A DNA stretch of 57,965 bases, taken from positions 1 to 57,965 of the forward strand of contig CADAMY010000001.1 of NCBI GenBank assembly GCA_902789095.1, in the 5' to 3' direction. The position numbers and the translations under genes were made by a program. The first letter of the stretch is position 1. Every line of letters begins with the position of its first letter. Positions 3,201 through 41,697 of the stretch are shown piece after piece. A model generated the notes under the pieces. It saw only the letters and a program-made list of their open reading frames with translations, was not told the DNA's origin and made no database searches. This DNA is from Oscillospiraceae bacterium. Lineage in GTDB: Bacteria > Bacillota > Clostridia > Oscillospirales > Acutalibacteraceae.

Positions 3201-3256
3201 ATTCTTTTGTCCAGATGCTTATACGAATTTTCTTATTCGGCTGGATATGGTATTGA
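221..3256 (+). CDS. Secreted CotH kinase-family protein with C-terminal Ig-like repeats and a hydrophobic tail
   Basis: TTG start 7 nt after GGAGG. N-terminal signal peptide. CotH-type motifs RGNTSW..KKPYKIKL and NKHWVLLANYYDQSSLRN. C-terminal repeats resemble bacterial Ig-like modules (..TGDQTVTVNYMGYSVKYQVKV). Last ~17 aa are hydrophobic. Confidence 0.8.
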   Translation: MKISKKLVALILSLIMLVPFACFTVLADEDVSVTFSSSFFEAGEKNEVIVEGFDSESLRYVWYVDGKEVINSDSYYIPSDFELESYISVDVFDGNKKLGSVGSYFSRLPVCYIDTDEAEITKAGYIDANMVIQGNSEYNDPKQLYDGKIEIKGRGNTSWYAPKKPYKIKLDSKSNLFNMGKNKHWVLLANYYDQSSLRNMLSYNMSGEMGLNYQQSVWVNVIMNGKCIGVYQLCEHVRLGKDRINIFDWESAGEDAASAIGKANGLSKADISSLEDQMVENLSWVTDNKVVFNETEYTVSDYYEIPEANGGFLYEADTHYDEVSKFTTSNGLLMNIGSPEFLNSNSEMFDYAKSYFQAVEDAVYSDDFCTEYNGEKVRYTDLIDLDSFAIGWIVNDLFGNVDYPYKSTYYYKDLNGKLYYGPVWDMDYSGDNATDVSFCDFRSIKDTRRRFMSEMTEDPVFVKRARELYWEIRSTYLYDLLKEGGIYDKDVSYLKEALRKNDIIWNYTYTSDEDSAAFKNWLKLKVQWLDAQYMSDDSLYQALHPEKYTAGLFEYDENEPVKLEVTSLPSKTYYLPGEKLDLTGVQLLATLRSGETKIVEPDYYVVSMKGYKRFEATFDGIAETEGKKTVDLYYKNVRASFNINVYSDSVDSVTNLINDLPDEVSASDYNDIYFARNAFNRLSAVDQSRIKNYDKLENAEKSINLIIDNMRQNGECILNAYYDGVFRFGSTNAIVVETLYSPKTRAIVLLYPTGSTRTINSAMPNVSVYNDGTVQTWVIYCVTRADYYDVFAKGASNISYRLKCADFENESTLVKRIDSPSVITPEIENEQYVYPAFAEFSAVTSKNVESMKIRCNNKEFNGTENLSGDNKVWTFYAALTDTGVINVQYIYTYLGKEYTFSVEDECFLREQVKKADPKIVSVSIAQEPYKLDYYYRAKVNTDGLKLLLTYDDGSTKIVEEGFTCTPDKFTKTGDQTVTVNYMGYSVKYQVKVSYSFVQMLIRIFLFGWIWY

Positions 3257-5781: not shown

Positions 5782-5814
5782 AAGCTGTGCGATTCGATCA
5801 AGAATTGCACAGCT
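5782..5814. terminator. Hairpin between convergent genes
   Basis: 9-bp stem AAGCTGTGC/GCACAGCTT. It sits in the 51-nt gap between the stops at 5767 (+) and 5819 (-). Confidence 0.55.
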
Positions 5815-5818
5815 TAAA

Positions 5819-6907
5819 TTATTTATTCAATAAATAACCATTGATTTCATAATAGAAATTAATGTCTTTCTCAACAGGCTCCTCGGTCTCGGTAGCTTTA
5901 AGAACTTTTTGAGTTACTTCCCAGCTTTTGTTCCAGGATTCTGTTATTTCTTCGGAATGTTCTGACTTTACGTCGTAGTTTGAAACAATATAATCAGCAA
6001 AAACCGGAGTAAATTTTTCCTGACCGAAAACGTTAAGGTGACCGTAATGATAAAAATCTTTTGTAGGAATCAAATTAAGATTTTGTCTTTCTGATTCAAA
6101 ATCTTTATAATCGTAACCGTATGATAATACTTTATTTTTTATATTCTCATACACTTCCGGATTCTTATTATCTACACAATGCGGAAATCTTACAAATAAC
6201 ACGTTTTCAACATTATTATCTTTAAAAAATTCAAGTAGATCCGTTAAAGAATCGTCAGCAATTTTTCCGGGTTTAGGTGTGTATTTTTTGAGCTTATCGC
6301 TTTTTAAAACATTTTTTTTGTTAGCATAAGCTTTAGTCATAGTCTGGCCGAATAAAGCCATATAAATTCTGTTTCTCAAACAAACTAAAAATGATCTTAT
6401 ATATTTCCAGTTTTCATGATATTTAATAATCGGGAAATGAAATTCTGCCTGACTTTCTTGCGGAACCGTATCCTTTATAAGCTGTTTTCTGAGTTTATCA
6501 TTAGGCACACTGTCCAGAAAAGTGTGGGCTTTTGTCAAATCATTCTGATATTCATCGTCGCAGGTAAATCCGTTTATCTCAATAACATAAAGCTTAGGAT
6601 TCTGATGCGCCATTACTTCCTGTACTGCAGGTTTATAATGTGTTGCAAGCATTCCTGCATAACAAAGAGAATAACTTGTAAAACCACTGTGATTCCACGC
6701 TAGGGGAGAGCAGAAGCCGGTATATAATTCACTCGCCCCGATTAAAGCTACATCTAAAGAGTCTTCAGGCTCAAGAAAAAAACCTCCGATATGCATTATA
6801 TCTTTGCGGTCAGCTACTTTAAGGCAGAATGATGCAGCAGTAGTAAGAATACAAATAACTAAAATAAAACTTATAAATCTGATAAGATTTTTAATAGATT
6901 TTTTCAT
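5819..6907 (-). CDS. DltD-like membrane-anchored SGNH-type protein (last gene of the dlt-like operon)
   Basis: Start moved to the ATG at 6907 (AAGGAGAT RBS). N-terminal TM anchor. IGASELY resembles the DltD GSSEL serine motif. C-terminal FYHYGHLN histidine motif. Size (362 aa) close to DltD. Confidence 0.55.
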   Translation of the reverse strand: MKKSIKNLIRFISFILVICILTTAASFCLKVADRKDIMHIGGFFLEPEDSLDVALIGASELYTGFCSPLAWNHSGFTSYSLCYAGMLATHYKPAVQEVMAHQNPKLYVIEINGFTCDDEYQNDLTKAHTFLDSVPNDKLRKQLIKDTVPQESQAEFHFPIIKYHENWKYIRSFLVCLRNRIYMALFGQTMTKAYANKKNVLKSDKLKKYTPKPGKIADDSLTDLLEFFKDNNVENVLFVRFPHCVDNKNPEVYENIKNKVLSYGYDYKDFESERQNLNLIPTKDFYHYGHLNVFGQEKFTPVFADYIVSNYDVKSEHSEEITESWNKSWEVTQKVLKATETEEPVEKDINFYYEINGYLLNK

Positions 6908-6920
6908 TTTATCTCCTTTC

Positions 6921-8549
6921 TTAAAACTGCATATAAACAAAATCAGCAGGACTGACTCCCGGTCCGTATGTTCCGCAAATAATAATGCCCATAATCAGCA
7001 TAATATAAACTATCCATTGAACAGGTAATTTTTTTCGTGCAAGAATATCACGAACAGGTTCCTGTTTTTTCTCTTGAATTACGGAAATAATGAATATAAT
7101 GAATGCGCCGAAGAAAATCATCAGAATATCCTGAAGATCAAGAGAATGATCAGGAATGAGACTTTCTTTGGAAATCTTAAAAAAAGGTTTCAGATCTGCA
7201 AGATGAAAATCTGTTACACCTTTATACATCATATAAACCGCTGACTTGACGCTTTTTGAAATATCAAAGAAATAACCGACGAGAACAAAAATAAACGTTC
7301 TTGCCATAGCAAATATTTTATACGGAAGTTTGTTGACGTTAATTTTCAGCTTTTCAATTATTTTTTTGTCAACAGGCTGCATAAAGGAGGACAGCATTAT
7401 CACAAGACCGTTCCAAAGACCGAATGCTACATATCTCAACTCTGATCCGTGCCAGATTCCAATTACTACAAAAGTAATAAGTGATGCTATACTCGTTGGC
7501 AGAACTTTACCGAAGTTTTTGTTGACTTTTTTAAGGTTCTTACCCATTTTCAAAAACGGTTTTGAAAGAGAAATGGGGTAGAAAAGATAATTGCGAAGCC
7601 AGTCGCCCAAAGTAATATGCCAGCGATGCCAGTATTCAGTAAGAGTTTTTGAAAAATAAGGACGTCTGAAGTTTTCAGCCATAGTTATGCCGTAAATTTC
7701 TGCAACACCGCGGCACATATCAACACCGCCGGAAAAATCGGCATAAAGCTGTATAGCATAAACGATTCCTGCAAAAATAAATACAGAACCTTGATATTTG
7801 CCGAAATGTTCCGGAATATAGGTTACGATAGAAACGGCTCTGTCTGCAATAACAAGCTTTTTAAACATACCCCATAAAATCAGGATTCCGCCTCTTTTGA
7901 ATCTGTCATAGCTGAATTTATGAGTTTCAAAAAGCTGATGAGCAAGATCGCTGTAAATTGCGATCGGACCCTGAATGATCTGAGGGAAGAATGATAAGAA
8001 CAGCGAAAGCTTAGCAATATTACGTTCAGCGGTAACTTTCTTTCGGTAAATATCAATTATATAACCCATTGCCTGGAAGGTATAAAATGATATACCAAGC
8101 GGCAATACAAGCTTTAAAGCTGGCAAATTCGGATCAAGTCCGATACTTGAAAGCACCCTGTCTGCTTGTGCGAAAATAAATCCGAGATATTTCAGCAAAG
8201 CCAGTATGCCGAAGTTAAAAACAAGAGCTAAAGCTGTAACAAGTTTTTTCTTGTTTTGCATTGATGCCTTAAACTTTTTCTTTTCTTCTGCTGACCAGAT
8301 TCCTTTTTGCTCTTTAATCCTCAAAGAAGTCTGATCGTTTAATTTCTGCAGCTTCAAACCGCACAAATAAGTTGAAATTATAGTTAAAAATATATAGAAT
8401 GAATACTTATTGCAGGTATAAATATAGAAAAACAAGCTCGAAACGAGTAAAACAACCCATTGATATTGCTTTAATTTTTCAGGCAGTAAAAAGTAAATTA
8501 AACCGGTAATAGTAACCAGCAGTAAAAAACCAAATGAAATTAAAGTCAT
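6921..8549 (-). CDS. MBOAT family O-acyltransferase (DltB/AlgI-like)
   Basis: Polytopic membrane protein with the MBOAT histidine region EYWHRWHITLGDWLRNYLFYP. Confidence 0.85.
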   Translation of the reverse strand: MTLISFGFLLLVTITGLIYFLLPEKLKQYQWVVLLVSSLFFYIYTCNKYSFYIFLTIISTYLCGLKLQKLNDQTSLRIKEQKGIWSAEEKKKFKASMQNKKKLVTALALVFNFGILALLKYLGFIFAQADRVLSSIGLDPNLPALKLVLPLGISFYTFQAMGYIIDIYRKKVTAERNIAKLSLFLSFFPQIIQGPIAIYSDLAHQLFETHKFSYDRFKRGGILILWGMFKKLVIADRAVSIVTYIPEHFGKYQGSVFIFAGIVYAIQLYADFSGGVDMCRGVAEIYGITMAENFRRPYFSKTLTEYWHRWHITLGDWLRNYLFYPISLSKPFLKMGKNLKKVNKNFGKVLPTSIASLITFVVIGIWHGSELRYVAFGLWNGLVIMLSSFMQPVDKKIIEKLKINVNKLPYKIFAMARTFIFVLVGYFFDISKSVKSAVYMMYKGVTDFHLADLKPFFKISKESLIPDHSLDLQDILMIFFGAFIIFIISVIQEKKQEPVRDILARKKLPVQWIVYIMLIMGIIICGTYGPGVSPADFVYMQF

Positions 8550-8553
8550 ATAT

Positions 8554-9723
8554 TTAAAAATCCTCTGCAGTATTAATACTTGATGTTTCTTTAAAATCTC
8601 TGACGATTTTTGCTCCGTACCTTTCAGAATACAGAATTATTCTCGGTAAAGTGCGCGATAAAAACAGACCGATACCCTCAGTTACAGTATAAGCGCCGCA
8701 TCTGCCGAAGCAAAGAATATCGCCGATATTTAATTCGGGCAATTCAACCTTACGCACAATTATATCGGCGGTAGTACATAAACTGCCGCAAAGCGTATAC
8801 GATTCAGTAGTTTTTTTCGGATTTAAAACTTCAATCGGAGGAATCTGCATAGCCATTGTCTGACCATAGTATTTAAGATGATTCATACCTCCGTCACAGA
8901 TAACATAGTTTGTTCCGCCGGTAGATTTAATATCGGCAGCACTTGTAAGATATGTGCCGCAGGACGAAGCAATAAAACGTCCCATTTCTACTGTAAGATT
9001 ATATTTTTCTGCGAACTTTTTGAGTCTTTCACAGGTGAAAGTGAGAATTTCATTGTCTTTCTCTTCATACGGAGCATTAAAATATTCAGCAGCCATGCCG
9101 GGACCGTATTCAACGTGGGAGGCTCTGAATCCGTATTTTTCGCCGATATGATCTATAAAGCTTTCAAAAGCATCGATATCATTTTCAATAACAGACTGTT
9201 TCTTTTTCTGTGTACCTGTATAATAATGAAAACCGATAATATTGAGTCCCGGATATTTACTTATATCTGAAATTATTGATTCAATATCAGATTTATCCAT
9301 ACCAAACTGATTACCGTTGGAAAGCCTCAATATAGTATCAGGCTTCATATCGAGCTTCATAGCTGTTTCGTTGATTATTCTGATATGCTGCAAGCTTTCG
9401 GCAGTGATGATACCTACGTTATATCTGAGCGCTTCTTCAACGTCATCATAACCTTTATTGACACCGGAATAAATAATCATTTCCGGCGGAATCTTTTTAG
9501 TTTTACATATGCTGAGTTCGCCGGGGGAGCATACCTCAACTTTTGATACGCATTCCGGCAAATCTGCAAGTAAAAAAGGATTAGCTTTTATAGAAAAGCA
9601 TAACGGAATATTGCCCAGTCTGTTTTTAATTATTATTGCTTGAGAATGAAATTCATCAATATCAAAAATAAAAGATGGAGTCTGAGCAATATCTTTGATT
9701 GATTCAATTATTTTAGTATTCAT
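8554..9723 (-). CDS. PLP-dependent decarboxylase, Orn/DAP/Arg decarboxylase family (fold type III)
   Basis: PLP-lysine motif CFSIKANPF..., VCSPGEL, HVEYGPGMAAEY (glycine loop) and CGSLCTTADI (CESGD-type). 2-nt and 4-nt gaps to its neighbours. Confidence 0.8.
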   Translation of the reverse strand: MNTKIIESIKDIAQTPSFIFDIDEFHSQAIIIKNRLGNIPLCFSIKANPFLLADLPECVSKVEVCSPGELSICKTKKIPPEMIIYSGVNKGYDDVEEALRYNVGIITAESLQHIRIINETAMKLDMKPDTILRLSNGNQFGMDKSDIESIISDISKYPGLNIIGFHYYTGTQKKKQSVIENDIDAFESFIDHIGEKYGFRASHVEYGPGMAAEYFNAPYEEKDNEILTFTCERLKKFAEKYNLTVEMGRFIASSCGTYLTSAADIKSTGGTNYVICDGGMNHLKYYGQTMAMQIPPIEVLNPKKTTESYTLCGSLCTTADIIVRKVELPELNIGDILCFGRCGAYTVTEGIGLFLSRTLPRIILYSERYGAKIVRDFKETSSINTAEDF

Positions 9724-9725
9724 AA

Positions 9726-9959
9726 TTATTCGTCTTCCAGATGAGAATTGATAAGATCTATCATACCTTCAACAGAATTAAAGTTATCAGGAACAAGATC
9801 CTCGACTCTTAATTCAATGTCGAATGCATCGCTTAATTCGCCGACAAGCGAAACGATATCAAATGATTCAAGAATACCGTCGGTAATAAGCTGTTTTTCG
9901 TTCTCAAAGTCTACATCCGGTCTTAATTCTTCCAGGATTTCCATAATTTCTTCTCTCAT
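9726..9959 (-). CDS. D-alanyl-carrier-protein-like (DltC-like) carrier protein
   Basis: 77 aa, acidic. GILESFDIVSLV matches the DltC GxLDSmg phosphopantetheine-serine motif. Confidence 0.8.
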   Translation of the reverse strand: MREEIMEILEELRPDVDFENEKQLITDGILESFDIVSLVGELSDAFDIELRVEDLVPDNFNSVEGMIDLINSHLEDE

Positions 9960-9973
9960 TTTTTTACCCTCTC

Positions 9974-11473
9974 TTACATATTTTTTAATTTTATTATATC
10001 TGTTTTTCCGTTGGGAAGTTTCGGAATAGCATCCAGTTTAATCATTTTTCTCGGAATCATAAATCCGGGAAGCGATTTTCTCATTTCTATAGCAATTTCT
10101 TTTGCAGTAGCTTCACCTGAATAATAAAGGATTATCAATTCTTTATCTTTATTATATACAACGCAGCATTCATCTACGCCTGCCAGCGTCATAGCAGTTC
10201 CTTCGACTTCATCAAGTTCAACTCTGTGACCTAAGAATTTGATCTGACGGTCCATTCTGCCGTGAAATTCAAGTATTCCGTCTTCACGAAGCAAGCCTAT
10301 ATCACCGGTACGGTAAATCAATTCACGGTAAGACTTGTTTACAGGATTCTGAATAAAGGATTTTTCGGTTTTTTCATGATCGTTATAATAACCGAGCGCC
10401 AATGCAGGTCCGCTGACGCATATTTCGCCTTTTTCACCTACGGCAGCGTATTCGTTATTTTCATTAAGTATAAATACTTTATAATCTTTATAAGGGTATC
10501 CTATAGGTAAAACATCGTCTTCGTTAACTTTATTTTCAACAACATAGTATGTGCACGAAGCAGTAGCTTCTGTCGGACCATACTGATTTACAAATACAGT
10601 TTCAGGTAAATTTTCCTGCCAGATTTTCAGCACTTTACAGGACATTACTGAGCCTGAAAAGCAAACTTTTTTCAGGTATTCAGGTTTACCGTGATCAAAT
10701 GCGTTAAGAGCAACAGGAACAGTCAGCGCTGATACGCTCCAGCCGACGGATGAAACCTTCTTTTCAGTCATATAATCAAACAGTAAAGCAGGGGATGAAA
10801 ACATTGATTTCGGAATTATAACCGTAGAGCATCCGTGCTTTACAGGAAGATATATATCTCTTATTGCTGCAATATAATCAAGCGGAGACTGATTGCCTAA
10901 AATATCGCTGCTGTCAATTTTCAAAACATCAGAATATGCGTCAATGTAGCACATCAATGAGTGATGTGATGTAATTACTCCTTTAGGACGACCGGTTGAA
11001 CCTGAAGTGAAAATAATATACAGCGGATCCGATTCATTAGAAAATCTTCTGATGCAATCAAGCTTTTTCTGATCGATTTCATGCTGATTTATGTTTTCTA
11101 TAACTTCGGTGCTGCACGAAAAACTAATTCTATCCAGCATCTTTAGATTCTGACTGTCAGTTAGAATAAGTGCAGGATCAAGAGTTTCAATGATCTGATT
11201 GATTCTTGCAACAGGCAGCGTTCCGTCGATAGGTGCATAAAAATTCCCGCTGTAAACAACACCGAGAAAAGCGCAGGGAGTATAACAATGCCTGCCTGAA
11301 ATAACTGCAATCGGTTTATTTATAATGTTTCGTTCGGCAATAGCTGTGCCGATAGATTTGGCTGTACTTATAACCTGATCAAACGAAATGCTGTTTTCAG
11401 TATCGCTGAAAGCAGTTTTTTCGCCGTATTTCAAAACTGTATTTTCAAGCCATTCAAGAACGTTGATCTGCAT
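9974..11473 (-). CDS. Amino-acid adenylating enzyme, DltA-like carrier-protein ligase
   Basis: ANL motifs IFTSGSTGRPKGV, QYGPTEAT, YRTGD and PNGKTD. Length (499 aa) and overall collinearity match DltA. Confidence 0.85.
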   Translation of the reverse strand: MQINVLEWLENTVLKYGEKTAFSDTENSISFDQVISTAKSIGTAIAERNIINKPIAVISGRHCYTPCAFLGVVYSGNFYAPIDGTLPVARINQIIETLDPALILTDSQNLKMLDRISFSCSTEVIENINQHEIDQKKLDCIRRFSNESDPLYIIFTSGSTGRPKGVITSHHSLMCYIDAYSDVLKIDSSDILGNQSPLDYIAAIRDIYLPVKHGCSTVIIPKSMFSSPALLFDYMTEKKVSSVGWSVSALTVPVALNAFDHGKPEYLKKVCFSGSVMSCKVLKIWQENLPETVFVNQYGPTEATASCTYYVVENKVNEDDVLPIGYPYKDYKVFILNENNEYAAVGEKGEICVSGPALALGYYNDHEKTEKSFIQNPVNKSYRELIYRTGDIGLLREDGILEFHGRMDRQIKFLGHRVELDEVEGTAMTLAGVDECCVVYNKDKELIILYYSGEATAKEIAIEMRKSLPGFMIPRKMIKLDAIPKLPNGKTDIIKLKNM

Positions 11474-11536
11474 TTTTTACCTCGTGTAATTAATAAATAT
11501 ATTAAGTAATTTTGTTTATTAAATTATATCTAAAAT

Positions 11537-11565
11537 ATTATAATATAAGCAGTAAGAAAAATCAA
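11537..11565 (-). promoter_or_regulatory. Sigma-A-type promoter of the dlt-like operon
   Basis: Minus strand reads TTGATT, 17-nt spacer, TATAAT. About 60 nt upstream of the 11473 start. Confidence 0.5.
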
Positions 11566-11578
11566 TGTTTCTTAAGAA

Positions 11579-12274
11579 TTAAAAATTAATAATTATATGA
11601 TTTTCCTGTAAATCTTCAGGTATAAAGCCGTTTTCGGCACTAAGCAAGAAAGCGGAATGATTTTTATCTTCAAAATTGCTGAAAACAGTATATTCGCCGT
11701 CGCATATATAAACAGCAATATCATCATCTATTCCTATTCCGTCAAGCTCCTGCATTTTAATATCTTCAAGAAAAGAAGGCCAATATTCAAAATGCGGACA
11801 GAGAATATAGGGGATAAGATTCAATCCGTCAAGGAACATGTATCTTCCGTCAGGACCGCAGTCGTCATAACCTCTTCTGCACCAGCACATAGCACCGGAG
11901 CTTTGACCGGCGAGGACGGTACCGTTATTATATGCTTCAATCATATATTTATCGGCGTTTCTTTTTCTCCATGTTTCAAGCAGAAATTTAAGATTACCGC
12001 CATCGGCATATATTAGGTCAGCAGACAACAAAGTATCTTTTATAAATTCATCACTAATAGAATCATCTGTAAGATACAATGAAATGCATTCTTTAAAACC
12101 GTGTTTGAGAGCGTAATTCCTGACAGTTTGTTCGTCACCGCGGCTGTCAAAACTTGCAGTAGGCAGAAATACCATTTTGTTTTTAACAGAAACTATTGAA
12201 AAAAGATTGTCTATGATTTGATCTGAATCACTTTCAAAATGAATATTACCGCTTGCTAAAAATAATTTGCCCAT
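11579..12274 (-). CDS. Peptidase S51 family (dipeptidase E-like)
   Basis: GGNLKFLL and GQSSGAM motifs characteristic of S51 / type 1 glutamine-amidotransferase-like peptidases. Confidence 0.7.
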   Translation of the reverse strand: MGKLFLASGNIHFESDSDQIIDNLFSIVSVKNKMVFLPTASFDSRGDEQTVRNYALKHGFKECISLYLTDDSISDEFIKDTLLSADLIYADGGNLKFLLETWRKRNADKYMIEAYNNGTVLAGQSSGAMCWCRRGYDDCGPDGRYMFLDGLNLIPYILCPHFEYWPSFLEDIKMQELDGIGIDDDIAVYICDGEYTVFSNFEDKNHSAFLLSAENGFIPEDLQENHIIINF

Positions 12275-12444: not shown

Positions 12445-13692
12445 ATGGATTTAAACTCACTAAAAGTATTTGATATTATAAATGATGAACAGAAAAGGCA
12501 GAAAAATTATATTGAGCTTATCGCAAGCGAAAATTTTGTATCTGAAAACGTTTTAAAGGCTGCCGGATCTGTGCTTACAAATAAATATGCAGAAGGTTAT
12601 CCCGAAAGGGAATCTGTTGAAAAATTTATTAAGGAGTTTCCTGATTACGTTCACAGCGGCAGCGTAGGCAGATATTACGGAGGATGCGAAAATATCGACA
12701 GGCTTGAGCTTTTTGCAAGATATATGTTTCAAAAGGTTTTTAATACGGATTATCACGTTAACGTTCAGCCGCACAGCGGATCATCAGCTAATCAGGCGGC
12801 ATATATGTCCGTTCTCGAATCAGGTGATACGATCCTTTCCATGAGTCTTGAAAACGGTGCTCATCTGACGCACGGATCGCCAGTAAATTTTTCAGGCAAA
12901 CAGTATAATATGGTGTTTTATAACGTTGATTCTGATGGATTTATTGATTATGACGATATTGAGCGCAAAATTAAAGAATATTCGCCGAAACTTGTGCTTG
13001 CTGGAGCTTCGGCATATTCGAGGATAATTGATTTTAAAAGAATCAGAGATATGATAGATTCTTGTGAAAATAAGCCATATTTTATGGTTGATATGGCTCA
13101 TATTGCAGGTCTTGTTGCTGCCGGGGATCATCCTTCGCCTTTTGGTTTAGCAGATATTATAACTACAACAACTCACAAAACGTTGAGAGGCGCAAGGGGC
13201 GGACTTATTTTCTGCATAAGAGAGCTTGCCAAAAAAGTTGACAGAGCGGTTTTTCCCGGCTGTCAGGGCGGGGGACTTCAGCATATCGTAGCTGCAAAAG
13301 CTGTTGCCGCCTGTGAAGCGCTCAGCGATGAATATAAAAATTATATCCATCAGGTAGTCAAAAATTCTCACGCTATGTGTGAGGAATTCAAAAAGCTCGG
13401 CTATGATATTGTTACCGGCGGAACCGACAATCATCTTTTTCTGATTGATTTTTCAAAAACGCATCCGCTAATTACCGGCAAAGAAATACAGAATCTGCTT
13501 GATGAACATGGAATAACGCTGAATAAAAACTGTGTTCCGAATGAAAAGAGAAGTCCGCAGGAAACCAGCGGTGTCAGAATAGGCACGGCGGCTATGACAA
13601 CGAAAGGCTTTAAAGAAAAGGACTTTATTGAAACAGCGGATAAAATCAATTTGATAATAAATGAATATTATAAAAATAAAATCGAGGGTTGA
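12445..13692 (+). CDS. glyA: Serine hydroxymethyltransferase (carries an unusual ~20-aa insertion)
   Basis: ELIASENF, TNKYAEGYP, RYYGGCE, VQPHSGS, TTTTHKTLRGARGG. Confidence 0.95.
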   Translation: MDLNSLKVFDIINDEQKRQKNYIELIASENFVSENVLKAAGSVLTNKYAEGYPERESVEKFIKEFPDYVHSGSVGRYYGGCENIDRLELFARYMFQKVFNTDYHVNVQPHSGSSANQAAYMSVLESGDTILSMSLENGAHLTHGSPVNFSGKQYNMVFYNVDSDGFIDYDDIERKIKEYSPKLVLAGASAYSRIIDFKRIRDMIDSCENKPYFMVDMAHIAGLVAAGDHPSPFGLADIITTTTHKTLRGARGGLIFCIRELAKKVDRAVFPGCQGGGLQHIVAAKAVAACEALSDEYKNYIHQVVKNSHAMCEEFKKLGYDIVTGGTDNHLFLIDFSKTHPLITGKEIQNLLDEHGITLNKNCVPNEKRSPQETSGVRIGTAAMTTKGFKEKDFIETADKINLIINEYYKNKIEG

Positions 13693-13696
13693 TTAT

Positions 13697-15961
13697 ATGA
13701 AATTATTTAAAACACTTATTTCAACGATTCTTATAATATCCTTGATTTCGGTTTTTATTTTTCCAGTAATTGCTATGGAACAAAAAGAAAACTACGGCTT
13801 ATATAATGTTTATACAGACAATATGCTTTTTAAACAGAATTCAGAAGGAATATTAGCAGGGAGAAGTAAAGCGGGAAGTATTGTTACGGCTGTTTTGTAC
13901 GATAAATCCAATAACATTGTTTTATCATCTAAGGCTCAGAGCGACAGAAGCTCTCGTTTCAGGATTTCTTTCAGGACTCCCGACGGCTCTTTTGAAAATT
14001 ATAAAATAGTGATTTATTCTGAAGATAACGTTATCGATTCAATCGCAGATATAGTTTTCGGCGAGCTTTGGCTTGCCGGAGGTCAGTCAAATATGATGTT
14101 TCCTCTTGGCGGGGCTGAAATTGGTGAAGATATGCAGGAAAAGAAAATTACCGGAAGCGAATGGATAAGATTCTTATCTACACCCGCTATTCCTGAGTAT
14201 AACGGCAGTTCGGATAATTGTCCGTTGTATCCACTTGAAGAAATAAAAGATTGTTTCTGGCATAAAGCAAATGATGAAAAGATTTACGGCAACTCGGCTG
14301 TCGGTTATTTCTTTGCTGAAAGCCTGCTAAAAAAGCTCAACGTGCCGATAGGCATTCTTGATTCAAATCTCGGAGGAAGCAGTATTGCCTCTTGGCTCTC
14401 AAGAGACGCTATTGATTCAGACAGCAGCGTTAAAAATGATCTATTAAATGCAGGCGAATATTTTGACGCTGAAAACTGGAGTGAGACAGGGCACGATCCT
14501 TATCGTGATATGACGGTTAATTTCAATAAAAAAATCTATCCTTTAAGAAATTTCAGATTATCGGGTATTATTTGGTATCAGGGTGAAACAGATTTCATTT
14601 ATCAATGGAGTGAAGAAAGATACGCCCGTTCACTTGCTCTTTTGCAGAAGTCATATTCGGATTTATTCAATAGCAGCGGTTCTTTACCATTGATTGTAAC
14701 TCAGTTAGCGCCGCATAGTTATGCAAGAATGCACGAATTAGCTGAATGGAACGCAGCATTATGTGAATTTCAGTCCGAATCGCCGCGATCAAGGGCTGTA
14801 ATTACTAATTATGACGTTGATCTTGATTATGATGAAAGCGTTGGTTCAATTCATCCATCTCATAAGTATGAAATAGGATGCAGATTTGCAGAAGCTGCCG
14901 ACAGAATGCTTTATAATAAAGAAAATAATTATACCGCAGCATACTATGAAAGCAGTCATACCGAGAATAACGATATAATTATTAAACTGAAAAACACAGG
15001 CAGCGGATTGGTTATCAATGGCAAAGATTGCATCGGATTTTCTATAAGTGACGAAAACGGAGTTTTCATTAAAGCAAAAGCTGAAATCATCAGCAAAGAC
15101 TGCGTCAGAGTCTATTCAGATAACATTAAAAATCCTGTTGCCGCAGCATACGCATATTGTGAAAATAATCATTATTCAAACCTATTCTCGACTGATGAAA
15201 ACGGTTTATATATGCCTGTTTCACCGTTTATTACCGATAAAGAAATATTAAACGTCAGTTGGGGAGGGAATGAATGGACTGATTGTGAATCTGATTCAAT
15301 ATGGCATCTCGGTAATGACGCAGCATATTATGATACTTGGAACAGCAGAAATGCAGATATTTCTTTTGATTCAGACAGCGCATTTTCCGGTGAGAGGGGA
15401 CTTCACGTTGTATCTGATAAAAAGATTTTTACATCGTTTTCCGTGAATCCGGTTTTATACAGAAAATATCATAATAAAAAGACGTCATTCGGCGAATGGA
15501 ACAATGACTGGAGCGATTACGCTTCTTTATCTTTTATGATAAAAAATAACGGAAAGAAAGATATTATTCTTAAACGTGCCGTTATTGACAATAAAGGCAT
15601 AGGCATTTTCAGCCCTGCAATAAACGGAACAACTTCTGTATCGCAAACAATTCCTGCTGACGACAGCTGGCATAAAATTACATTGAATTTAAACAGACTC
15701 TATCTTTTCTCAAATGAAGCTTCAGCTTACTATTCCAACAAAAAGATAGATAACGTAATTAACTTCATACTTGAATTTGACGGAAAAAATCCCGATATAA
15801 GTATTGATGATTTTAATTTTGATTCCGAGGAGTTTGATAAAGACGAAAGGGTTACGTTCAGCGCAGATTATAAAAATGTGAAAGGTATATTTACTTTATT
15901 TACTGCTCTTATTACCAATTTAATCGGTCTGTTTGTTAAACAATCATTTCCAAAAGTATAA
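13697..15961 (+). CDS. Sialate O-acetylesterase-family (SASA/SGNH) secreted protein with C-terminal extension and hydrophobic tail
   Basis: Start set to the ATG at 13697, after the glyA stop. Signal/anchor sequence. GELWLAGGQSNM and WYQGETD motifs. Confidence 0.7.
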   Translation: MKLFKTLISTILIISLISVFIFPVIAMEQKENYGLYNVYTDNMLFKQNSEGILAGRSKAGSIVTAVLYDKSNNIVLSSKAQSDRSSRFRISFRTPDGSFENYKIVIYSEDNVIDSIADIVFGELWLAGGQSNMMFPLGGAEIGEDMQEKKITGSEWIRFLSTPAIPEYNGSSDNCPLYPLEEIKDCFWHKANDEKIYGNSAVGYFFAESLLKKLNVPIGILDSNLGGSSIASWLSRDAIDSDSSVKNDLLNAGEYFDAENWSETGHDPYRDMTVNFNKKIYPLRNFRLSGIIWYQGETDFIYQWSEERYARSLALLQKSYSDLFNSSGSLPLIVTQLAPHSYARMHELAEWNAALCEFQSESPRSRAVITNYDVDLDYDESVGSIHPSHKYEIGCRFAEAADRMLYNKENNYTAAYYESSHTENNDIIIKLKNTGSGLVINGKDCIGFSISDENGVFIKAKAEIISKDCVRVYSDNIKNPVAAAYAYCENNHYSNLFSTDENGLYMPVSPFITDKEILNVSWGGNEWTDCESDSIWHLGNDAAYYDTWNSRNADISFDSDSAFSGERGLHVVSDKKIFTSFSVNPVLYRKYHNKKTSFGEWNNDWSDYASLSFMIKNNGKKDIILKRAVIDNKGIGIFSPAINGTTSVSQTIPADDSWHKITLNLNRLYLFSNEASAYYSNKKIDNVINFILEFDGKNPDISIDDFNFDSEEFDKDERVTFSADYKNVKGIFTLFTALITNLIGLFVKQSFPKV

Positions 15962-40058: not shown

Positions 40059-40077
40059 TAATAGAAGGAGATTTATT

Positions 40078-41463: not shown

Positions 41464-41475
41464 GGAGGATATAAA

Positions 41476-41697
41476 ATGCTTGAAAAAGTTAAGGAAATAC
41501 TCGGTGAATTTATAGATATAGATCCCGATACAATAACACCGGAAAGTAATCTCAGGACTGATATCGGTCTTAATTCGCTTGACTGTGTAAGCCTTGCGGA
41601 AGAGCTTGAGAACGAATACAATATTGAAATTCCGAATTCAGAGCTTTCAAAATTCAAAACAATCGGCGACGTAATCAGTTACATTAAATCAAACTGA
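41476..41697 (+). CDS. Acyl/peptidyl carrier protein
   Basis: 73 aa, acidic. GLNSLD phosphopantetheine-serine motif. Confidence 0.8.
   Translation: MLEKVKEILGEFIDIDPDTITPESNLRTDIGLNSLDCVSLAEELENEYNIEIPNSELSKFKTIGDVISYIKSN

What the first reader, a model, noticed from the sequence alone, without database searches (positions are those of the whole stretch)
5819..11565. dlt-like five-gene operon with an embedded Orn/DAP-type PLP decarboxylase
One promoter (11537-11565) and one terminator (5782-5814) bracket five genes:
- a DltA-like adenylating ligase;
- a DltC-like carrier protein;
- a fold-type-III decarboxylase;
- an AlgI/DltB-like MBOAT (542 aa, longer than typical DltB);
- a DltD-like anchored protein.
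Intergenic gaps are 14, 2, 4 and 13 nt, so the decarboxylase is integral to the operon rather than a neighbour. Canonical dlt (dltABCD) has no such enzyme. Carrier-tethered decarboxylation has a precedent as I recall it: in butirosin biosynthesis, BtrK (same decarboxylase family) acts on glutamyl-S-BtrI. One hypothesis is that a dicarboxylic or diamino acid is loaded, decarboxylated on the carrier, and then esterified to an envelope polymer by the MBOAT/DltD pair. That would be a non-D-alanine cell-surface modification. Alternatively, the decarboxylase supplies the free substrate for the ligase.
Basis: partly seen in the sequence, partly recalled or inferred. Interest (0 to 1): 0.7.

Follow-up and report, generated by a model that had tools for sequence, protein, structure and literature searches.

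The report
Dlt-like envelope acylation operon with decarboxylase
A five-gene operon, conserved across hundreds of gut and rumen Clostridia species, joins the machinery that normally puts D-alanine on the cell surface to an enzyme that decarboxylates an amino acid while it hangs on a carrier protein, so these bacteria probably decorate their envelope with a different, so far undescribed, amino-acyl group.

Summary
Five minus-strand genes (9974-11473, 9726-9959, 8554-9723, 6921-8549, 5819-6907) are separated by 14, 2, 4 and 13 nt. They encode an NRPS-type adenylating ligase, a DltC-like carrier, a fold-type-III PLP decarboxylase, a DltB-like MBOAT, and a membrane-anchored SGNH protein whose closest solved fold is DltD.

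- **Conservation:** ligase and decarboxylase are adjacent in all 57 fully flanked species-representative loci. The window's flanking genes are not conserved.
- **Not D-alanylation:** the ligase code is IARGCSQASK, against DLMVLCTVAK in a true DltA. It lacks the alpha-amine-binding Asp235 and has Arg at 239, which suggests an acidic amino acid held by its side-chain carboxyl.
- **Not lysA:** the decarboxylase's closest solved relative, by sequence and by fold, is BtrK, which acts on carrier-bound glutamate.
- **Long MBOAT explained:** it ends in FVYMQF, the FxYxxF "acyl-shuttle" motif of DltX and PatA, fused on two extra transmembrane segments.

Best reading: load Glu or Asp, decarboxylate it on the carrier to an omega-aminoacyl thioester (GABA or beta-alanyl), then export it via MBOAT Tyr539 and SGNH Ser59 onto an envelope polymer. 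Substrate and acceptor are inferred, not shown. I found no prior description. New variant of known kinds.

The parts
11537..11565 (-). Promoter-like site TTGATT-17-TATAAT, in the 105-nt gap between the upstream peptidase S51 gene and the ligase gene.
   Evidence: (10 of 12 consensus matches) and sequence. The count of such sites in the region is not above the shuffled expectation, so it is supported by position only.
9974..11473 (-). Adenylating ligase, 499 aa, NRPS A-domain/DltA-like. Residues at the specificity positions are Asp199 (=233), Ile201 (=235), Arg205 (=239), Gly, Cys, Ser, Gln, Ala, Ser and Lys, in GrsA numbering.
   Evidence: Pfam AMP-binding 181 bits. Against the NCBIfam DltA models it scores 288 and 273 bits, below the cut-offs of 476 and 560. 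PDB: NRPS A domains score above DltA, which reaches about 190 bits. Code IARGCSQASK is invariant in 54 sequences whose overall identity falls to 46%. The HMMER alignment to LgrA places Ile at 235 and Arg at 239 as well.
9726..9959 (-). Stand-alone carrier protein, 77 aa, DltC-like. The predicted phosphopantetheine serine is Ser32 (codon 9864-9866).
   Evidence: NCBIfam DltC 35.8 bits, below the cut-off of 68. Best PDB matches are DltC 8jf2_F and 6bug_A, with Ser32 aligned to the DltC Ser. G-I-L-[ED]-S-F is conserved in relatives.
8554..9723 (-). Fold-type-III PLP decarboxylase, 389 aa, BtrK-like. Key residues: Lys46 (PLP), His166/Tyr168, Glu246, Arg249, Asp277, Cys316, Tyr345. Family signature YYGQTMAM at 285-292.
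   Evidence: Pfam Orn_Arg_deC_N and Orn_DAP_Arg_deC. lysA scores 152 bits against a cut-off of 298; TIGR03099 scores 159 against 478. The best PDB sequence match is BtrK, E 1e-30. The best fold match is BtrK, E 4e-28, TM 0.81.
6921..8549 (-). MBOAT acyltransferase, 542 aa, DltB-like core. His311 and His367 align with DltB His289 and His336. It has two extra C-terminal hydrophobic segments at 469-494 and 506-532.
   Evidence: Pfam MBOAT. NCBIfam DltB 137.6 bits, below the cut-off of 375. The only PDB sequence matches are DltB 6bug and 8jem, 84 bits. Hydropathy. The roles of the DltB histidines are in PMC11035591.
6924..6941 (-). Codons for the C-terminal hexapeptide F537-V-Y539-M-Q-F542 of the MBOAT. 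This is an FxYxxF 'acyl-shuttle' motif, with Tyr539 as the predicted acyl acceptor.
   Evidence: Sequence. Every full-length (>450 aa) MBOAT listed from the 86 related loci ends x-[IVML]-Y-x-x-[FY]; FVYMQF occurs 28 times. The motif and its role in DltX and PatA are described in PMC12148441. The DltX motif FLYFGF is in PMC11035591.
5819..6907 (-). Membrane-anchored SGNH/DltD-like transferase, 362 aa. It has an N-terminal transmembrane helix (about residues 3-33). Invariant residues: G57-A-S59-E60, Asp284, His290, Asn292.
   Evidence: No Pfam, NCBIfam or PDB sequence match. AlphaFold pLDDT 92.8. Foldseek top matches are DltD 6pfx, 3bma, 7dxm and 6o93 (E 2e-4 to 3e-3, prob 0.96-1.0, TM about 0.36), followed by SGNH hydrolases. 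Invariant columns. The family has 2796 50%-identity clusters at E<=1e-30.
5782..5815 (.). Palindromic 14-bp-stem hairpin between convergent genes. On the minus strand it is followed by GATTTTTCTTT. Likely a bidirectional intrinsic terminator.

Best explanation
This is a carrier-protein-dependent MBOAT-SGNH system that acylates the cell envelope, a relative of the Dlt D-alanylation pathway. Its cargo is made on the carrier by decarboxylation.

Proposed steps:
1. The ligase adenylates an acidic amino acid, most likely L-glutamate or L-aspartate, at its side-chain carboxyl. It then thioesterifies the amino acid to the phosphopantetheine arm on Ser32 of the carrier.
2. The BtrK-like PLP decarboxylase removes the free alpha-carboxyl of the tethered amino acid. 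This leaves an omega-aminoacyl thioester: 4-aminobutyryl from Glu, or beta-alanyl from Asp.
3. The MBOAT, with His367 as catalytic base, takes the acyl group from the carrier at the cytoplasmic face. It transfers it to Tyr539 of its own extracytoplasmic C-terminal FVYMQF motif.
4. The anchored SGNH/DltD-like protein takes the acyl group on Ser59 and esterifies a hydroxyl of an envelope glycopolymer, such as a teichoic acid or another secondary wall polymer. The polymer gains a primary amine.

Shown here:
- gene content, order and conservation;
- family and fold assignments;
- presence of the catalytic and motif residues;
- absence of the D-Ala code and of the LysA signature.

Inferred:
- the identity and regiochemistry of the substrate;
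- that decarboxylation happens on the carrier;
- the Tyr and Ser acyl intermediates;
- the acceptor polymer.
For: **Synteny.** All 57 species-representative loci with at least 4 kb on each side have ligase and decarboxylase together. 56 also have the carrier, 42 an MBOAT and 34 a detectable fifth-protein relative. Gene orders are permuted, for example P5-LIG-ACP-DEC-MBOAT and P5-MBOAT-LIG-ACP-DEC. The window's flanking genes never recur.

**Ligase.** The ten-residue code IARGCSQASK is invariant while overall ligase identity falls to 46%. Asp235 is replaced by Ile, Arg sits at 239 and Asp at 233. A sister clade keeps Asp235 and has Lys239 (independent HMMER alignment). A true DltA reads DLMVLCTVAK.

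**Decarboxylase.** The catalytic residues are present. BtrK-type motifs are shared and the LysA signature is absent. BtrK is the top solved match by sequence and by fold.

**Precedents.** VinN/VinL/VinO and BolO/BolC/BolN load Asp or 3-methyl-Asp through the beta-carboxyl onto a free-standing ACP and decarboxylate it there. The free product is not an intermediate (PMC11284099; PMC7756342).

**MBOAT.** The DltB His289 and His336 equivalents are present. The FxYxxF shuttle motif sits on two extra transmembrane segments.

**Fifth protein.** It has an SGNH fold closest to DltD, an N-terminal anchor, and an invariant Ser in G-A-S-E.
Against: - No biochemical datum exists for any member of this cassette.
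The motif anchors (FD, GxE/S, YGPTE, GK) and an independent HMMER alignment agree, but this is not a structural superposition.
- The charge argument for Arg239 is indirect. Arg239 could instead pair with the neighbouring Asp233 or Asp240.
- BtrK outranks the DAP decarboxylases only narrowly: 110 against 101 bits, and E 4e-28 against 5e-27.
- The DltD fold match has a low TM-score (0.36) and E-values of only 2e-4 to 3e-3.
- Glu and Asp cannot be told apart, nor can either be distinguished from alpha-aminoadipate.
- About a quarter of complete loci lack an MBOAT nearby. These use GNAT-like, Antibiotic_NAT-like or WcbI neighbours instead. The ligase-carrier-decarboxylase trio is therefore a portable module, and the acceptor may differ between organisms.
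Confidence: 0.6

Rival explanations
1. The decarboxylase acts on a free amino acid (Glu to GABA, Asp to beta-Ala, or meso-DAP to Lys). The ligase then loads that product onto the carrier for export.
For: Fold-type-III decarboxylases normally act on free substrates (PDB matches). Operon membership alone does not give the order of steps.
Against: - The ligase pocket carries Arg (or Lys in the sister clade) at position 239 and no new acidic residue at the code positions. That is the wrong charge for an omega-amine or lysine side chain.
- The closest solved relative is the carrier-dependent BtrK.
- In the Vin and Bol systems the free decarboxylated acid is not accepted.
- The carrier and decarboxylase genes are 2 nt apart and co-occur in 56 of 57 loci.
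Confidence: 0.12
2. meso-Diaminopimelate is loaded by one alpha-carboxyl. Its free end is decarboxylated on the carrier to give lysyl-S-carrier, so the envelope is lysylated.
For: DAP decarboxylases score nearly as well as BtrK. DAP has a second alpha-amino-acid end that a LysA-like enzyme could attack. Loss of LysA's residues for binding the distal carboxylate would be expected if that end were a thioester.
Against: Loading DAP by an alpha-carboxyl should need the alpha-amine-binding Asp235, which is Ile in all 54 members of this clade. The cation at 239 sits where the gamma-carboxylate of Glu binds in Glu-activating domains (own knowledge of Stachelhaus codes), which is probably too shallow for a seven-carbon substrate. 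This reading cannot be excluded for the sister clade, which keeps Asp235.
Confidence: 0.1
3. The acyl group is not destined for an envelope glycopolymer. It goes to a lipid, a protein or a secreted small molecule, and the cassette is a natural-product-like pathway.
For: The trio ligase-carrier-decarboxylase is best known from antibiotic and siderophore pathways. Some related loci combine it with extra ligases, carriers and GNAT-like enzymes.
Against: In the window and in 42 of 57 complete loci, the partners are an MBOAT with a shuttle motif and, in 34, a detectable anchored SGNH protein. Every characterised bacterial pair of this kind acylates an envelope polymer (PMC12148441). There is no PKS, NRPS module or tailoring gene in the operon. 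MBOAT-less variants sit among glycosyltransferases, YfhO and WcbI, which is polysaccharide context.
Confidence: 0.08
4. The decarboxylase homologue catalyses another PLP reaction on the tethered or free substrate, such as racemisation or epimerisation, and the cargo keeps its carboxyl group.
For: There is a weak Pfam match to Ala_racemase_N (26.8 bits), because the two families share a TIM-barrel fold. The His that stacks on PLP in LysA and ODC is Tyr168 here.
Against: The C-terminal beta-sheet domain of the decarboxylases is present (62 bits). The decarboxylase residues are conserved: Lys46, Glu246, Arg249, Asp277, Cys316 and the G-A-Y motif. The Tyr substitution is shared with BtrK, which is a proven decarboxylase.
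Confidence: 0.05
5. This is an ordinary dlt D-alanylation operon that happens to sit next to a lysA-like gene.
For: All four Dlt roles have their best named matches in DltA, DltB, DltC and DltD.
Against: - All four proteins score far below the equivalog cut-offs.
- The ligase code differs from a true DltA at nine of ten positions.
- The decarboxylase is embedded in the cluster in more than 50 species.
- The shuttle motif is fused to the MBOAT rather than carried on a DltX microprotein.
- A Pseudobutyrivibrio locus carries a true DltA/DltC as well as the cassette's ligase, carrier and decarboxylase.
Confidence: 0.02

Closest known systems
Dlt pathway (DltX-DltA-DltB-DltC-DltD), which D-alanylates teichoic acids in Bacillota
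   Same: - Both have an adenylating ligase that loads a small carrier protein.
- Both have an MBOAT with the two conserved histidines that takes the acyl group from the carrier.
- Both use a tyrosine-containing FxYxxF shuttle motif.
- Both have an anchored SGNH transferase with a DltD-like fold.
- The predicted outcome is also the same: an amine-bearing ester on an envelope polymer.
   Different: - The ligase specificity code is not the D-Ala code.
- An extra, integral PLP decarboxylase is present.
- There is no DltX microprotein; the shuttle motif is fused to the MBOAT on two additional transmembrane segments.
- All four proteins fall far below the Dlt equivalog cut-offs.
- The fifth protein is not recognised by any DltD sequence model.
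MBOAT-SGNH O-acetylation pairs with a fused shuttle motif (PatA/PatB for peptidoglycan; AlgI with AlgJ/AlgX; cellulose and secondary wall polysaccharide systems)
   Same: The MBOAT has two extra C-terminal transmembrane helices and ends in the FxYxxF hexapeptide. Compare NgPatA FIYANF with FVYMQF here. It has a separate SGNH partner (PMC12148441).
   Different: Those systems are described as lacking a carrier protein and using acetyl-CoA. This one has a dedicated ligase and carrier, like Dlt. It is therefore a hybrid of the two published architectures.
VinN/VinL/VinO (vicenistatin) and BolO/BolC/BolN (bolagladin)
   Same: An ANL/A-domain-type ligase loads an acidic amino acid through its side-chain carboxyl onto a free-standing ACP. 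A PLP decarboxylase (BolN is BtrK-like) then removes the alpha-carboxyl on the carrier, giving a beta-aminoacyl thioester.
   Different: - Those products feed PKS or NRPS assembly lines in Actinomycetes and Burkholderia; here the partners are an MBOAT and an SGNH protein.
- VinN keeps the amine-binding Asp (Asp230) and binds the alpha-carboxylate with Ser299/Arg331. This ligase has Ile at 235 and its cation at 239.
- VinN ranks below DltA among PDB matches of the window ligase: it is not among the 60 best.
BtrI/BtrJ/BtrK (butirosin side chain)
   Same: BtrK decarboxylates gamma-L-glutamyl-S-BtrI. It is the closest solved relative of the window decarboxylase by sequence (E 1e-30) and by fold (TM 0.81), and shares H-x-Y-T-G-T-Q and C-T.
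   Different: Identity is only about 24%. BtrJ is an ATP-grasp ligase, not an adenylating enzyme (own knowledge). The product goes to an aminoglycoside through cytoplasmic enzymes.
Exosortase-A-associated ligase/decarboxylase pair (NCBIfam TIGR03098 / TIGR03099)
   Same: This is a catalogued pairing of an AMP-forming ligase with a fold-type-III decarboxylase in exopolysaccharide loci. TIGR03099 is the best-scoring NCBIfam model for the window decarboxylase (159 bits).
   Different: Scores are far below the cut-offs: 159 against 478, and 178 against 592. That pair belongs to Gram-negative PEP-CTERM systems and has no known function (own knowledge of the model descriptions). No MBOAT/SGNH link is described for it.
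AlmE/AlmF/AlmG (glycine addition to Vibrio cholerae lipid A)
   Same: This is a Dlt-like ligase and carrier re-purposed for a non-D-Ala amino acid on an envelope molecule. AlmE (4oxi) is among the PDB matches of the ligase.
   Different: There is no decarboxylase. The transferase is a cytoplasmic-face lipid A acyltransferase, not an MBOAT/SGNH pair (own knowledge).

Membership tests
Dlt D-alanylation pathway | The ligase is a DltA equivalog (NCBIfam TIGR01734 cut-off 559.85; NF003417 cut-off 476). | tested here: not met
   It scores 273.1 and 287.9 bits. A true DltA from L056 scores 551 and 584 bits.
Dlt D-alanylation pathway | The ligase carries the D-Ala specificity residues, including Cys at the position equivalent to GrsA 301. 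| tested here: not met
   The window code is IARGCSQASK; the true DltA code is DLMVLCTVAK. The positions were mapped with a GrsA fragment recalled from memory and cross-checked with the HMMER alignment.
Dlt D-alanylation pathway | There is a DltC-type carrier with a phosphopantetheinylated Ser. | tested here: inconclusive
   The DltC model gives 35.8 bits against a cut-off of 68. However, the best PDB matches are DltC and Ser32 aligns with the DltC Ser.
Dlt D-alanylation pathway | There is a DltB MBOAT with His289/His336 (TIGR04091 cut-off 375). | tested here: inconclusive
   The score is 137.6 bits, below the cut-off. Both histidines are conserved, as His311 and His367.
Dlt D-alanylation pathway | There is a separate DltX microprotein carrying the FxYxxF motif. 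| tested here: not met
   There is no small ORF of this kind in the operon. [quoted passage not shown]
Dlt D-alanylation pathway | There is a DltD: an anchored SGNH-like transferase with a catalytic Ser. | tested here: inconclusive
   There is no DltD sequence match. The predicted fold is closest to DltD structures (prob 0.96-1.0, TM about 0.36). An N-terminal anchor and an invariant G-A-S59-E are present.
MBOAT-SGNH acyl-shuttle systems (PatA/PatB type) | The MBOAT has a C-terminal FxYxxF hexapeptide on two additional transmembrane helices. | tested here: met
   The protein ends in FVYMQF, preceded by hydrophobic segments at 469-494 and 506-532. The motif is conserved in all cassette-linked MBOATs. 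The definition comes from PMC12148441.
MBOAT-SGNH acyl-shuttle systems (PatA/PatB type) | There is a separate extracytoplasmic SGNH partner. | tested here: met
   The fifth protein has an SGNH/DltD-like predicted fold with an N-terminal anchor. It is adjacent, or within 6 kb, in 34 of 57 complete loci.
MBOAT-SGNH acyl-shuttle systems (PatA/PatB type) | The acyl donor is an acyl-CoA, with no carrier protein. | not testable with these tools
   Gene content argues for a carrier-bound donor: ligase and carrier are in the same operon. Donor use needs an assay.
Carrier-tethered amino-acid decarboxylation cassettes (Btr, Vin, Bol) | There is a fold-type-III PLP decarboxylase of the BtrK type with catalytic Lys and Cys. 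| tested here: met
   BtrK is the best solved match by sequence and by fold. Lys46, Cys316 and the BtrK-type motifs are present.
Carrier-tethered amino-acid decarboxylation cassettes (Btr, Vin, Bol) | A free-standing carrier and a dedicated ligase are encoded next to the decarboxylase. | tested here: met
   The gaps are 14 and 2 nt. 56 of 57 complete loci have the carrier, and 57 of 57 have the ligase.
Carrier-tethered amino-acid decarboxylation cassettes (Btr, Vin, Bol) | The ligase activates the side-chain carboxyl of an acidic amino acid. | tested here: inconclusive
   Asp235 is absent and Arg239 is present, which is consistent with this feature. The VinN recognition residues Ser299/Arg331 could not be aligned because no VinN sequence was available.
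Carrier-tethered amino-acid decarboxylation cassettes (Btr, Vin, Bol) | The decarboxylase acts on the acyl-carrier, not on the free acid. | not testable with these tools
   This needs intact-protein MS of the loaded carrier with and without the decarboxylase.
Diaminopimelate decarboxylase (LysA) | The protein scores at or above the TIGR01048 cut-off (297.9) and has the LysA motifs H-x-H-I-G-S-Q and C-E-S. | tested here: not met
   It scores 152.5 bits. The motifs are replaced by H-Y-Y-T-G-T-Q and C-T. The Arg/Tyr pair seen in true LysA (D-N-I-R-V-P-L-Y) is absent. A true lysA (423.5 bits) lies beside the cassette in L036.
Exosortase-A-associated ligase/decarboxylase (TIGR03098/TIGR03099) | Both proteins score at or above the model cut-offs (592.35 and 478.45). 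| tested here: not met
   They score 177.8 and 159.4 bits.

The most novel reading that the evidence does not exclude
Hundreds of gut and rumen Clostridia species esterify an envelope glycopolymer with an omega-amino acid (4-aminobutyrate or beta-alanine) instead of, or in addition to, D-alanine. The omega-amino acid is made in situ by decarboxylating side-chain-tethered Glu or Asp on a carrier protein. This would be three things at once:
- a new chemical class of cell-surface modification;
- the first case of natural-product-style on-carrier decarboxylation feeding an MBOAT-SGNH export route;
- the first carrier-dependent MBOAT with a fused acyl-shuttle motif.
Probability: 0.5. Interest if true: 0.8.

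Novelty: new variant of a known kind. Interest (0 to 1): 0.72.

Why it matters
D-alanyl esters on teichoic acids set surface charge, resistance to cationic antimicrobial peptides, autolysis and recognition by the host immune system. The Dlt pathway is a drug target for these reasons.

If this cassette installs a different amine-bearing ester, a major group of commensals carries an unrecognised surface chemistry. That group includes relatives of Ruminococcus, Agathobacter, Lachnospira and Pseudobutyrivibrio, and at least 584 species-level genomes hold a relative of the decarboxylase. Such a chemistry could affect host-microbe interaction and phage or peptide susceptibility.

Mechanistically, the cassette bridges two published MBOAT-SGNH architectures: carrier plus DltX, and acyl-CoA plus fused motif. 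It also shows the on-carrier decarboxylation logic of antibiotic pathways being used in primary envelope biology.

It gives the large unannotated SGNH family of the fifth protein a testable role. That family has about 2800 clusters at 50% identity.

Cultured carriers exist, so the prediction can be tested directly. Examples are Pseudobutyrivibrio sp. OR37, Lachnospiraceae AD3010 and AC3007, Anaerobium acetethylicum, Lachnospira intestinalis and Agathobacter sp.

Tried and rejected
- **Sequence match of the fifth protein to known families.** Pfam, NCBIfam and a profile search of PDB sequences found nothing meaningful. Only the fold search linked it to DltD.
- **Bridging the fifth protein to DltD through remote homologues.** The profile search returned 9824 relatives, but the 150 listed are all close, so no bridge was obtained.
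- **Substrate hints from leader RNAs.** No T-box or riboswitch lies next to the cassette in the window or in 8 diverse loci.
- **Substrate hints from flanking genes.** The upstream peptidase S51, which could in principle supply Asp, and SHMT, the SASA esterase, the hydrolase and the ArgZ-like gene never recur beside the cassette. I treat them as unrelated.
- **My first manual reading of the ligase A4 motif.** It put Asp at 235 (code D-Y-A...). Both MAFFT and HMMER shift this by two residues, so I dropped it.
- **VinN residue mapping.** The VinN paper (PMC4223343) and the Schultz et al. 2023 paper (PMC10664464) are not held, and VinN is not among the alignments shown. The comparison with VinN therefore rests on one sentence in PMC7756342.
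- **The aminoadipate code.** From memory, the ACV-synthetase aminoadipate code is EPRNIVEFVK, with no Asp at 235 and Arg at 239. That would be a direct precedent. A literature search for the string found nothing, so I use it only as an unverified lead.
- **Literature searches.** Later searches found no paper linking BtrK/VinO-type decarboxylases with DltB, MBOAT or teichoic acids.
- **Source names.** The look-up for the five proteins returned none.

Full report
**1. What is in the sequence**

Window positions 5819-11473 carry five ORFs on the minus strand:

| Gene | Coordinates | Length |
|---|---|---|
| Ligase | 9974-11473 | 499 aa |
| Carrier | 9726-9959 | 77 aa |
| Decarboxylase | 8554-9723 | 389 aa |
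| MBOAT | 6921-8549 | 542 aa |
| Fifth protein | 5819-6907 | 362 aa |

- The fifth protein is counted from the ATG that follows an AAAGGAGA ribosome-binding site. The longer TTG start at 6940 would overlap the MBOAT gene.
- A TTGATT-17-TATAAT site lies at 11565-11537, in the 105-nt gap after the upstream peptidase S51 gene.
- A 14-bp hairpin at 5782-5815 is followed on the minus strand by a T-rich run.
- Promoter-like hexamers are no more common here than in shuffled sequence (33 against 28.3). The promoter is therefore plausible by position, not proven.
- The hairpin lies between convergent genes and can terminate both.

**2. What the five proteins are**

*Ligase.*
- It has the AMP-binding and AMP-binding_C domains.
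- Its best NCBIfam matches are the generic amino-acid adenylation domain (303 bits) and DltA (288 and 273 bits). The DltA scores are far below the cut-offs of 476 and 560.
- Among solved structures, NRPS A domains come first and DltA follows at about 190 bits.

*Carrier.*
- It matches DltC weakly (35.8 bits, cut-off 68).
- DltC is its best PDB match, and Ser32 aligns with the DltC phosphopantetheine serine.

*Decarboxylase.*
- It has both domains of the Orn/DAP/Arg decarboxylase family.
- It scores 152 bits on the lysA equivalog (cut-off 298). It scores 159 bits on the exosortase-A-associated decarboxylase model TIGR03099 (cut-off 478).

*MBOAT.*
- DltB is its only named relative: 137.6 bits in NCBIfam against a cut-off of 375, and 84 bits against PDB entries 6bug and 8jem.
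- His311 and His367 align with DltB His289 and the invariant active-site His336 (residue roles from PMC11035591).

*Fifth protein.*
- It matches no Pfam, NCBIfam or PDB sequence.
- An AlphaFold model built from 32 homologues is confident (pLDDT 92.8, pTM 0.90).
- Its best PDB fold matches are four DltD structures: 6pfx, 3bma, 7dxm and 6o93. They have E 2e-4 to 3e-3 and probability 0.96-1.0, but TM-scores of only about 0.36. Generic SGNH/GDSL hydrolases follow.
- It has one N-terminal hydrophobic helix.
- Its invariant residues are G57-A-S59-E60, Asp284, His290 and Asn292. This is the pattern expected for an anchored SGNH transferase with a serine nucleophile.
- Its family is large and unannotated: 2796 clusters at 50% identity score E<=1e-30.

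**3. The cluster is a conserved unit**

- The decarboxylase has 5786 database relatives at E<=1e-10.
- A scan of one genome per species found at least 584 loci encoding a relative.
- The best 80 loci come almost entirely from Clostridia: Ruminococcus, Lachnospiraceae, Acutalibacteraceae, Agathobacter, Lachnospira, Pseudobutyrivibrio and Butyrivibrio. A few are Erysipelotrichales.

I called ORFs in all loci and searched them with the five window proteins. Among the 57 loci with at least 4 kb on both sides of the decarboxylase gene:

| Feature present | Loci |
|---|---|
| Ligase | 57 |
| Carrier | 56 |
| MBOAT on the same strand within 6 kb | 42 |
| Detectable relative of the fifth protein | 34 |

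- Gene order is permuted between lineages. Observed orders include LIG-ACP-DEC-MBOAT-P5, P5-LIG-ACP-DEC-MBOAT, P5-MBOAT-LIG-ACP-DEC and, in a more distant clade, LIG-DEC-ACP-MBOAT-P5. Permutation with retention is the signature of functional coupling.
- None of the window's flanking genes recurs next to the cassette in any locus.
- Metagenomic contigs with decarboxylases 62% and 52% identical show the same five genes.

**4. It is not D-alanylation**

I aligned 78 cassette ligases with two true DltA proteins and a GrsA fragment, then read the ten Stachelhaus positions.
- The true DltA proteins come from Pseudobutyrivibrio loci L056 and L066. The L056 protein was checked and scores 584 bits, above the subfamily cut-off.
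Its anchors (FD, L-I-T-A-G, N-A-Y-G-P-T-E, T-T-I-C, G-K) are standard.

| Group | Code |
|---|---|
| True DltA | DLMVLCTVAK |
| Window ligase and 53 others | IARGCSQASK |
| Sister clade (25 sequences, LIG-DEC-ACP order) | D-V-K-[IVT]-[LMI]-S-[LVI]-C-N-K |

- The window-clade code does not vary even though overall ligase identity falls to 46%.
- In the window clade, the Asp that binds the alpha-amino group in alpha-amino-acid-activating domains (position 235) is Ile. An invariant Asp sits two residues earlier (233), and Arg occupies position 239 at the floor of the pocket.
- HMMER's independent alignments to both LgrA A domains place the same residues at 235 and 239.
- A missing alpha-amine anchor plus a cation deep in the pocket is what one expects if the enzyme activates a carboxyl that has no adjacent amine, on a substrate that carries another carboxylate. 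That describes the side-chain carboxyl of Glu, Asp or aminoadipate.
- From my own knowledge of specificity codes, Lys239 is typical of Glu-activating domains. From memory, the delta-carboxyl-activating aminoadipate domain of ACV synthetase has Arg239 and no Asp235. I could not verify that code in the literature held.

**5. The decarboxylase is BtrK-like, not LysA**

I aligned it with BtrK and with a true LysA. The LysA comes from L036, scores 423.5 bits on the lysA model, and lies 2 kb from that genome's cassette.

Residues the window enzyme keeps:
- the PLP lysine (S-I-K46-A-N);
- E246-x-G-R249;
- D277-G-G;
- the catalytic Cys316;
- G-A-Y345.

Features it shares with BtrK:
- H-x-Y-T-G-T-Q, where LysA has H-x-H-I-G-S-Q;
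- C-T, where LysA has C-E-S.

It also lacks two things found in LysA:
- The Arg/Tyr pair (D-N-I-R-V-P-L-Y in the true LysA). To my knowledge this pair binds the distal carboxylate of DAP.
- A 15-residue loop.

BtrK is annotated in the PDB as L-glutamyl-[BtrI acyl-carrier protein] decarboxylase. It is the top solved match by sequence (E 1e-30, 110 bits, against 101 bits for the best DAP decarboxylase). It is also the top match by predicted fold (E 4e-28, TM 0.81; model pLDDT 78). The margins are small, so this is supporting evidence rather than decisive evidence.

**6. Precedents for the first half of the pathway**

- In vicenistatin biosynthesis, the adenylation enzyme VinN loads 3-methylaspartate, but not the decarboxylated acid, onto the free-standing ACP VinL. 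The PLP enzyme VinO then decarboxylates it on the carrier (PMC11284099).
- In bolagladin biosynthesis, BolO/BolC/BolN are proposed to do the same with aspartate. BolN is BtrK-like. Feeding beta-alanine does not rescue a bolN mutant (PMC7756342).
- That paper calls loading of aspartate onto a stand-alone ACP followed by decarboxylation 'a well-established mechanism' for starter-unit supply.
- The trio ligase-carrier-decarboxylase is thus a known module. Here it sits in a cell-envelope operon.

**7. The second half, and why the MBOAT is long**

- The MBOAT ends in F537-V-Y539-M-Q-F542. Two hydrophobic segments precede this (469-494 and 506-532), and both lie beyond the part that aligns with DltB.
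- Every full-length (>450 aa) MBOAT found in the 86 related loci ends in x-[IVML]-Y-x-x-[FY]. FVYMQF occurs 28 times.
- This is the 'acyl shuttle' motif FxYxxF.
  - In Dlt it sits at the C-terminus of the microprotein DltX. DltB transfers D-Ala from DltC to its tyrosine, and DltD then takes it on its serine.
  - In PatA and other MBOATs the motif is fused to the enzyme on two additional transmembrane helices. PatA auto-acetylates the tyrosine and PatB uses it as donor (PMC12148441; DltX motif FLYFGF in PMC11035591).
- The same paper states that the fused-motif systems lack a carrier protein because they use acyl-CoA.
- The window operon is therefore a hybrid that is not described there. It is carrier-dependent like Dlt, with a fused shuttle like PatA and no DltX gene.

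**8. Most likely mechanism**

1. The ligase loads Glu or Asp, through the side-chain carboxyl, onto Ser32 of the carrier.
2. The decarboxylase removes the alpha-carboxyl on the carrier. The product is 4-aminobutyryl- or beta-alanyl-S-carrier.
3. The MBOAT moves the acyl group to Tyr539 at the outer face of the membrane.
4. The anchored SGNH protein moves it, through Ser59, to a hydroxyl of an envelope glycopolymer.

- The result would be a flexible primary amine on the surface, functionally analogous to a D-alanyl ester.
- Making the omega-amino acid on the carrier avoids any need for a free pool of GABA or beta-alanine.
- I put about 0.6 on this chain as a whole. Confidence is higher for the export half and for 'not D-Ala, not lysA'. 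It is lower for the regiochemistry.
- I cannot choose between Glu and Asp.

**9. Rivals**

- *Free-substrate supply by the decarboxylase (0.12).* This fits poorly with a cationic ligase pocket and with the precedents.
- *Tethered meso-DAP giving lysyl-carrier (0.10).* This is disfavoured for this clade because Asp235 is absent. It is not excluded for the sister clade.
- *A non-polymer destination (0.08).* This is unlikely given the MBOAT/SGNH pair and the polysaccharide-type neighbours of the MBOAT-less variants.
- *A different PLP reaction (0.05).*
- *A plain dlt operon (0.02).* This is rejected at the sequence level.

**10. Variants seen elsewhere**

- About a quarter of complete loci have the trio without an MBOAT.
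- In Pseudobutyrivibrio (L056, L066) the trio lies among a GT2, a hexapeptide acyltransferase, a YfhO-family membrane protein, a true DltA/DltC pair without DltB or DltD, an Antibiotic_NAT-like protein and a GT4.
- In L084, and by gene pattern also L062 and L070, it sits with extra ligases and carriers. In L084, the one annotated, it is also next to GNAT-like proteins and a WcbI-family protein.
- The trio therefore looks like a portable cargo-making module that is plugged into different transferases.
- Many Ruminococcus-type loci also carry a second MBOAT (544 aa, ending PIYA[ND]F) with a 318-aa relative of the fifth protein, directly upstream. The window does not.

**11. Novelty**

- Both halves belong to known kinds: MBOAT-SGNH envelope acylation, and on-carrier decarboxylation.
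- In the literature I could search, I found no description of their combination. The same holds for a carrier-dependent MBOAT with a fused shuttle, and for an omega-aminoacyl envelope ester made this way.
- The search is limited to open-access full text. The key Dlt mechanism paper was not readable, and its genomic survey might mention such operons.
- I rate this a new variant of a known kind, with interest 0.72.

Noticed in passing
window 38511-41697 (+): There is a second carrier-based gene set in the window. It comprises an AMP-binding ligase (515 aa, 38511-40058), a stand-alone condensation-domain protein (484 aa, 40009-41463) and a 73-aa carrier with a G-L-N-S-L-D motif (41476-41697). It looks like a minimal NRPS-like acylation unit.
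   Followed up: partly
L001-L003, L007-L014, L016 (e.g. L009 3547-6147); divergently placed in L004-L006, L017: Ruminococcus-type relatives carry a second MBOAT (543-544 aa) next to the cassette. Its C-terminus is P-[IM]-Y-A-[ND]-F. It is paired with a 316-330-aa distant relative of the fifth protein. This is presumably a separate acylation system, perhaps using acyl-CoA. It is absent from the window.
   Followed up: partly
L056 4335-16387 and L066 (Pseudobutyrivibrio): The ligase-carrier-decarboxylase trio occurs here without any MBOAT. It is embedded among GT2, a hexapeptide acyltransferase, YfhO, a true DltA and DltC pair that lacks DltB and DltD, an Antibiotic_NAT-like protein and GT4. A canonical-looking DltA/DltC with no DltB/DltD beside it is odd in itself.
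   Followed up: partly
L084 5335-16650; L062; L070: Sister-clade loci carry two or three ligases and up to three carrier genes. L084, the one I annotated, also has 283-aa GNAT-like proteins and a WcbI-family protein. This suggests multi-step acyl or dipeptidyl assembly on carriers for a polysaccharide modification.
   Followed up: partly
window 11579-12274 (-): A peptidase family S51 gene lies directly upstream on the same strand, 105 nt from the ligase gene. S51 is the family of aspartyl dipeptidase and cyanophycinase. It could release Asp, but it is not found near the cassette in any of the 86 related loci.
   Followed up: yes
window 13661-15961 (+): A 766-aa protein has an N-terminal hydrophobic segment and a SASA (sialate O-acetylesterase-type, SGNH) domain, about 2 kb from the operon. 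It is a possible envelope-ester hydrolase, but it is not conserved next to the cassette.
   Followed up: partly
window 221-3256 (+): A 1011-aa secreted or anchored protein has a CotH kinase-like domain and Big_3 repeats. Weak relatives appear only in L060.
   Followed up: no
L023 10976-13347: Two tandem copies of the fifth-protein gene (369 and 400 aa) follow the MBOAT in one Lachnospiraceae locus.
   Followed up: no
L018 11950-12121 (+): A cobalamin riboswitch (84.8 bits) lies just downstream of the cassette in one Lachnospiraceae locus. It probably belongs to the next gene.
   Followed up: no
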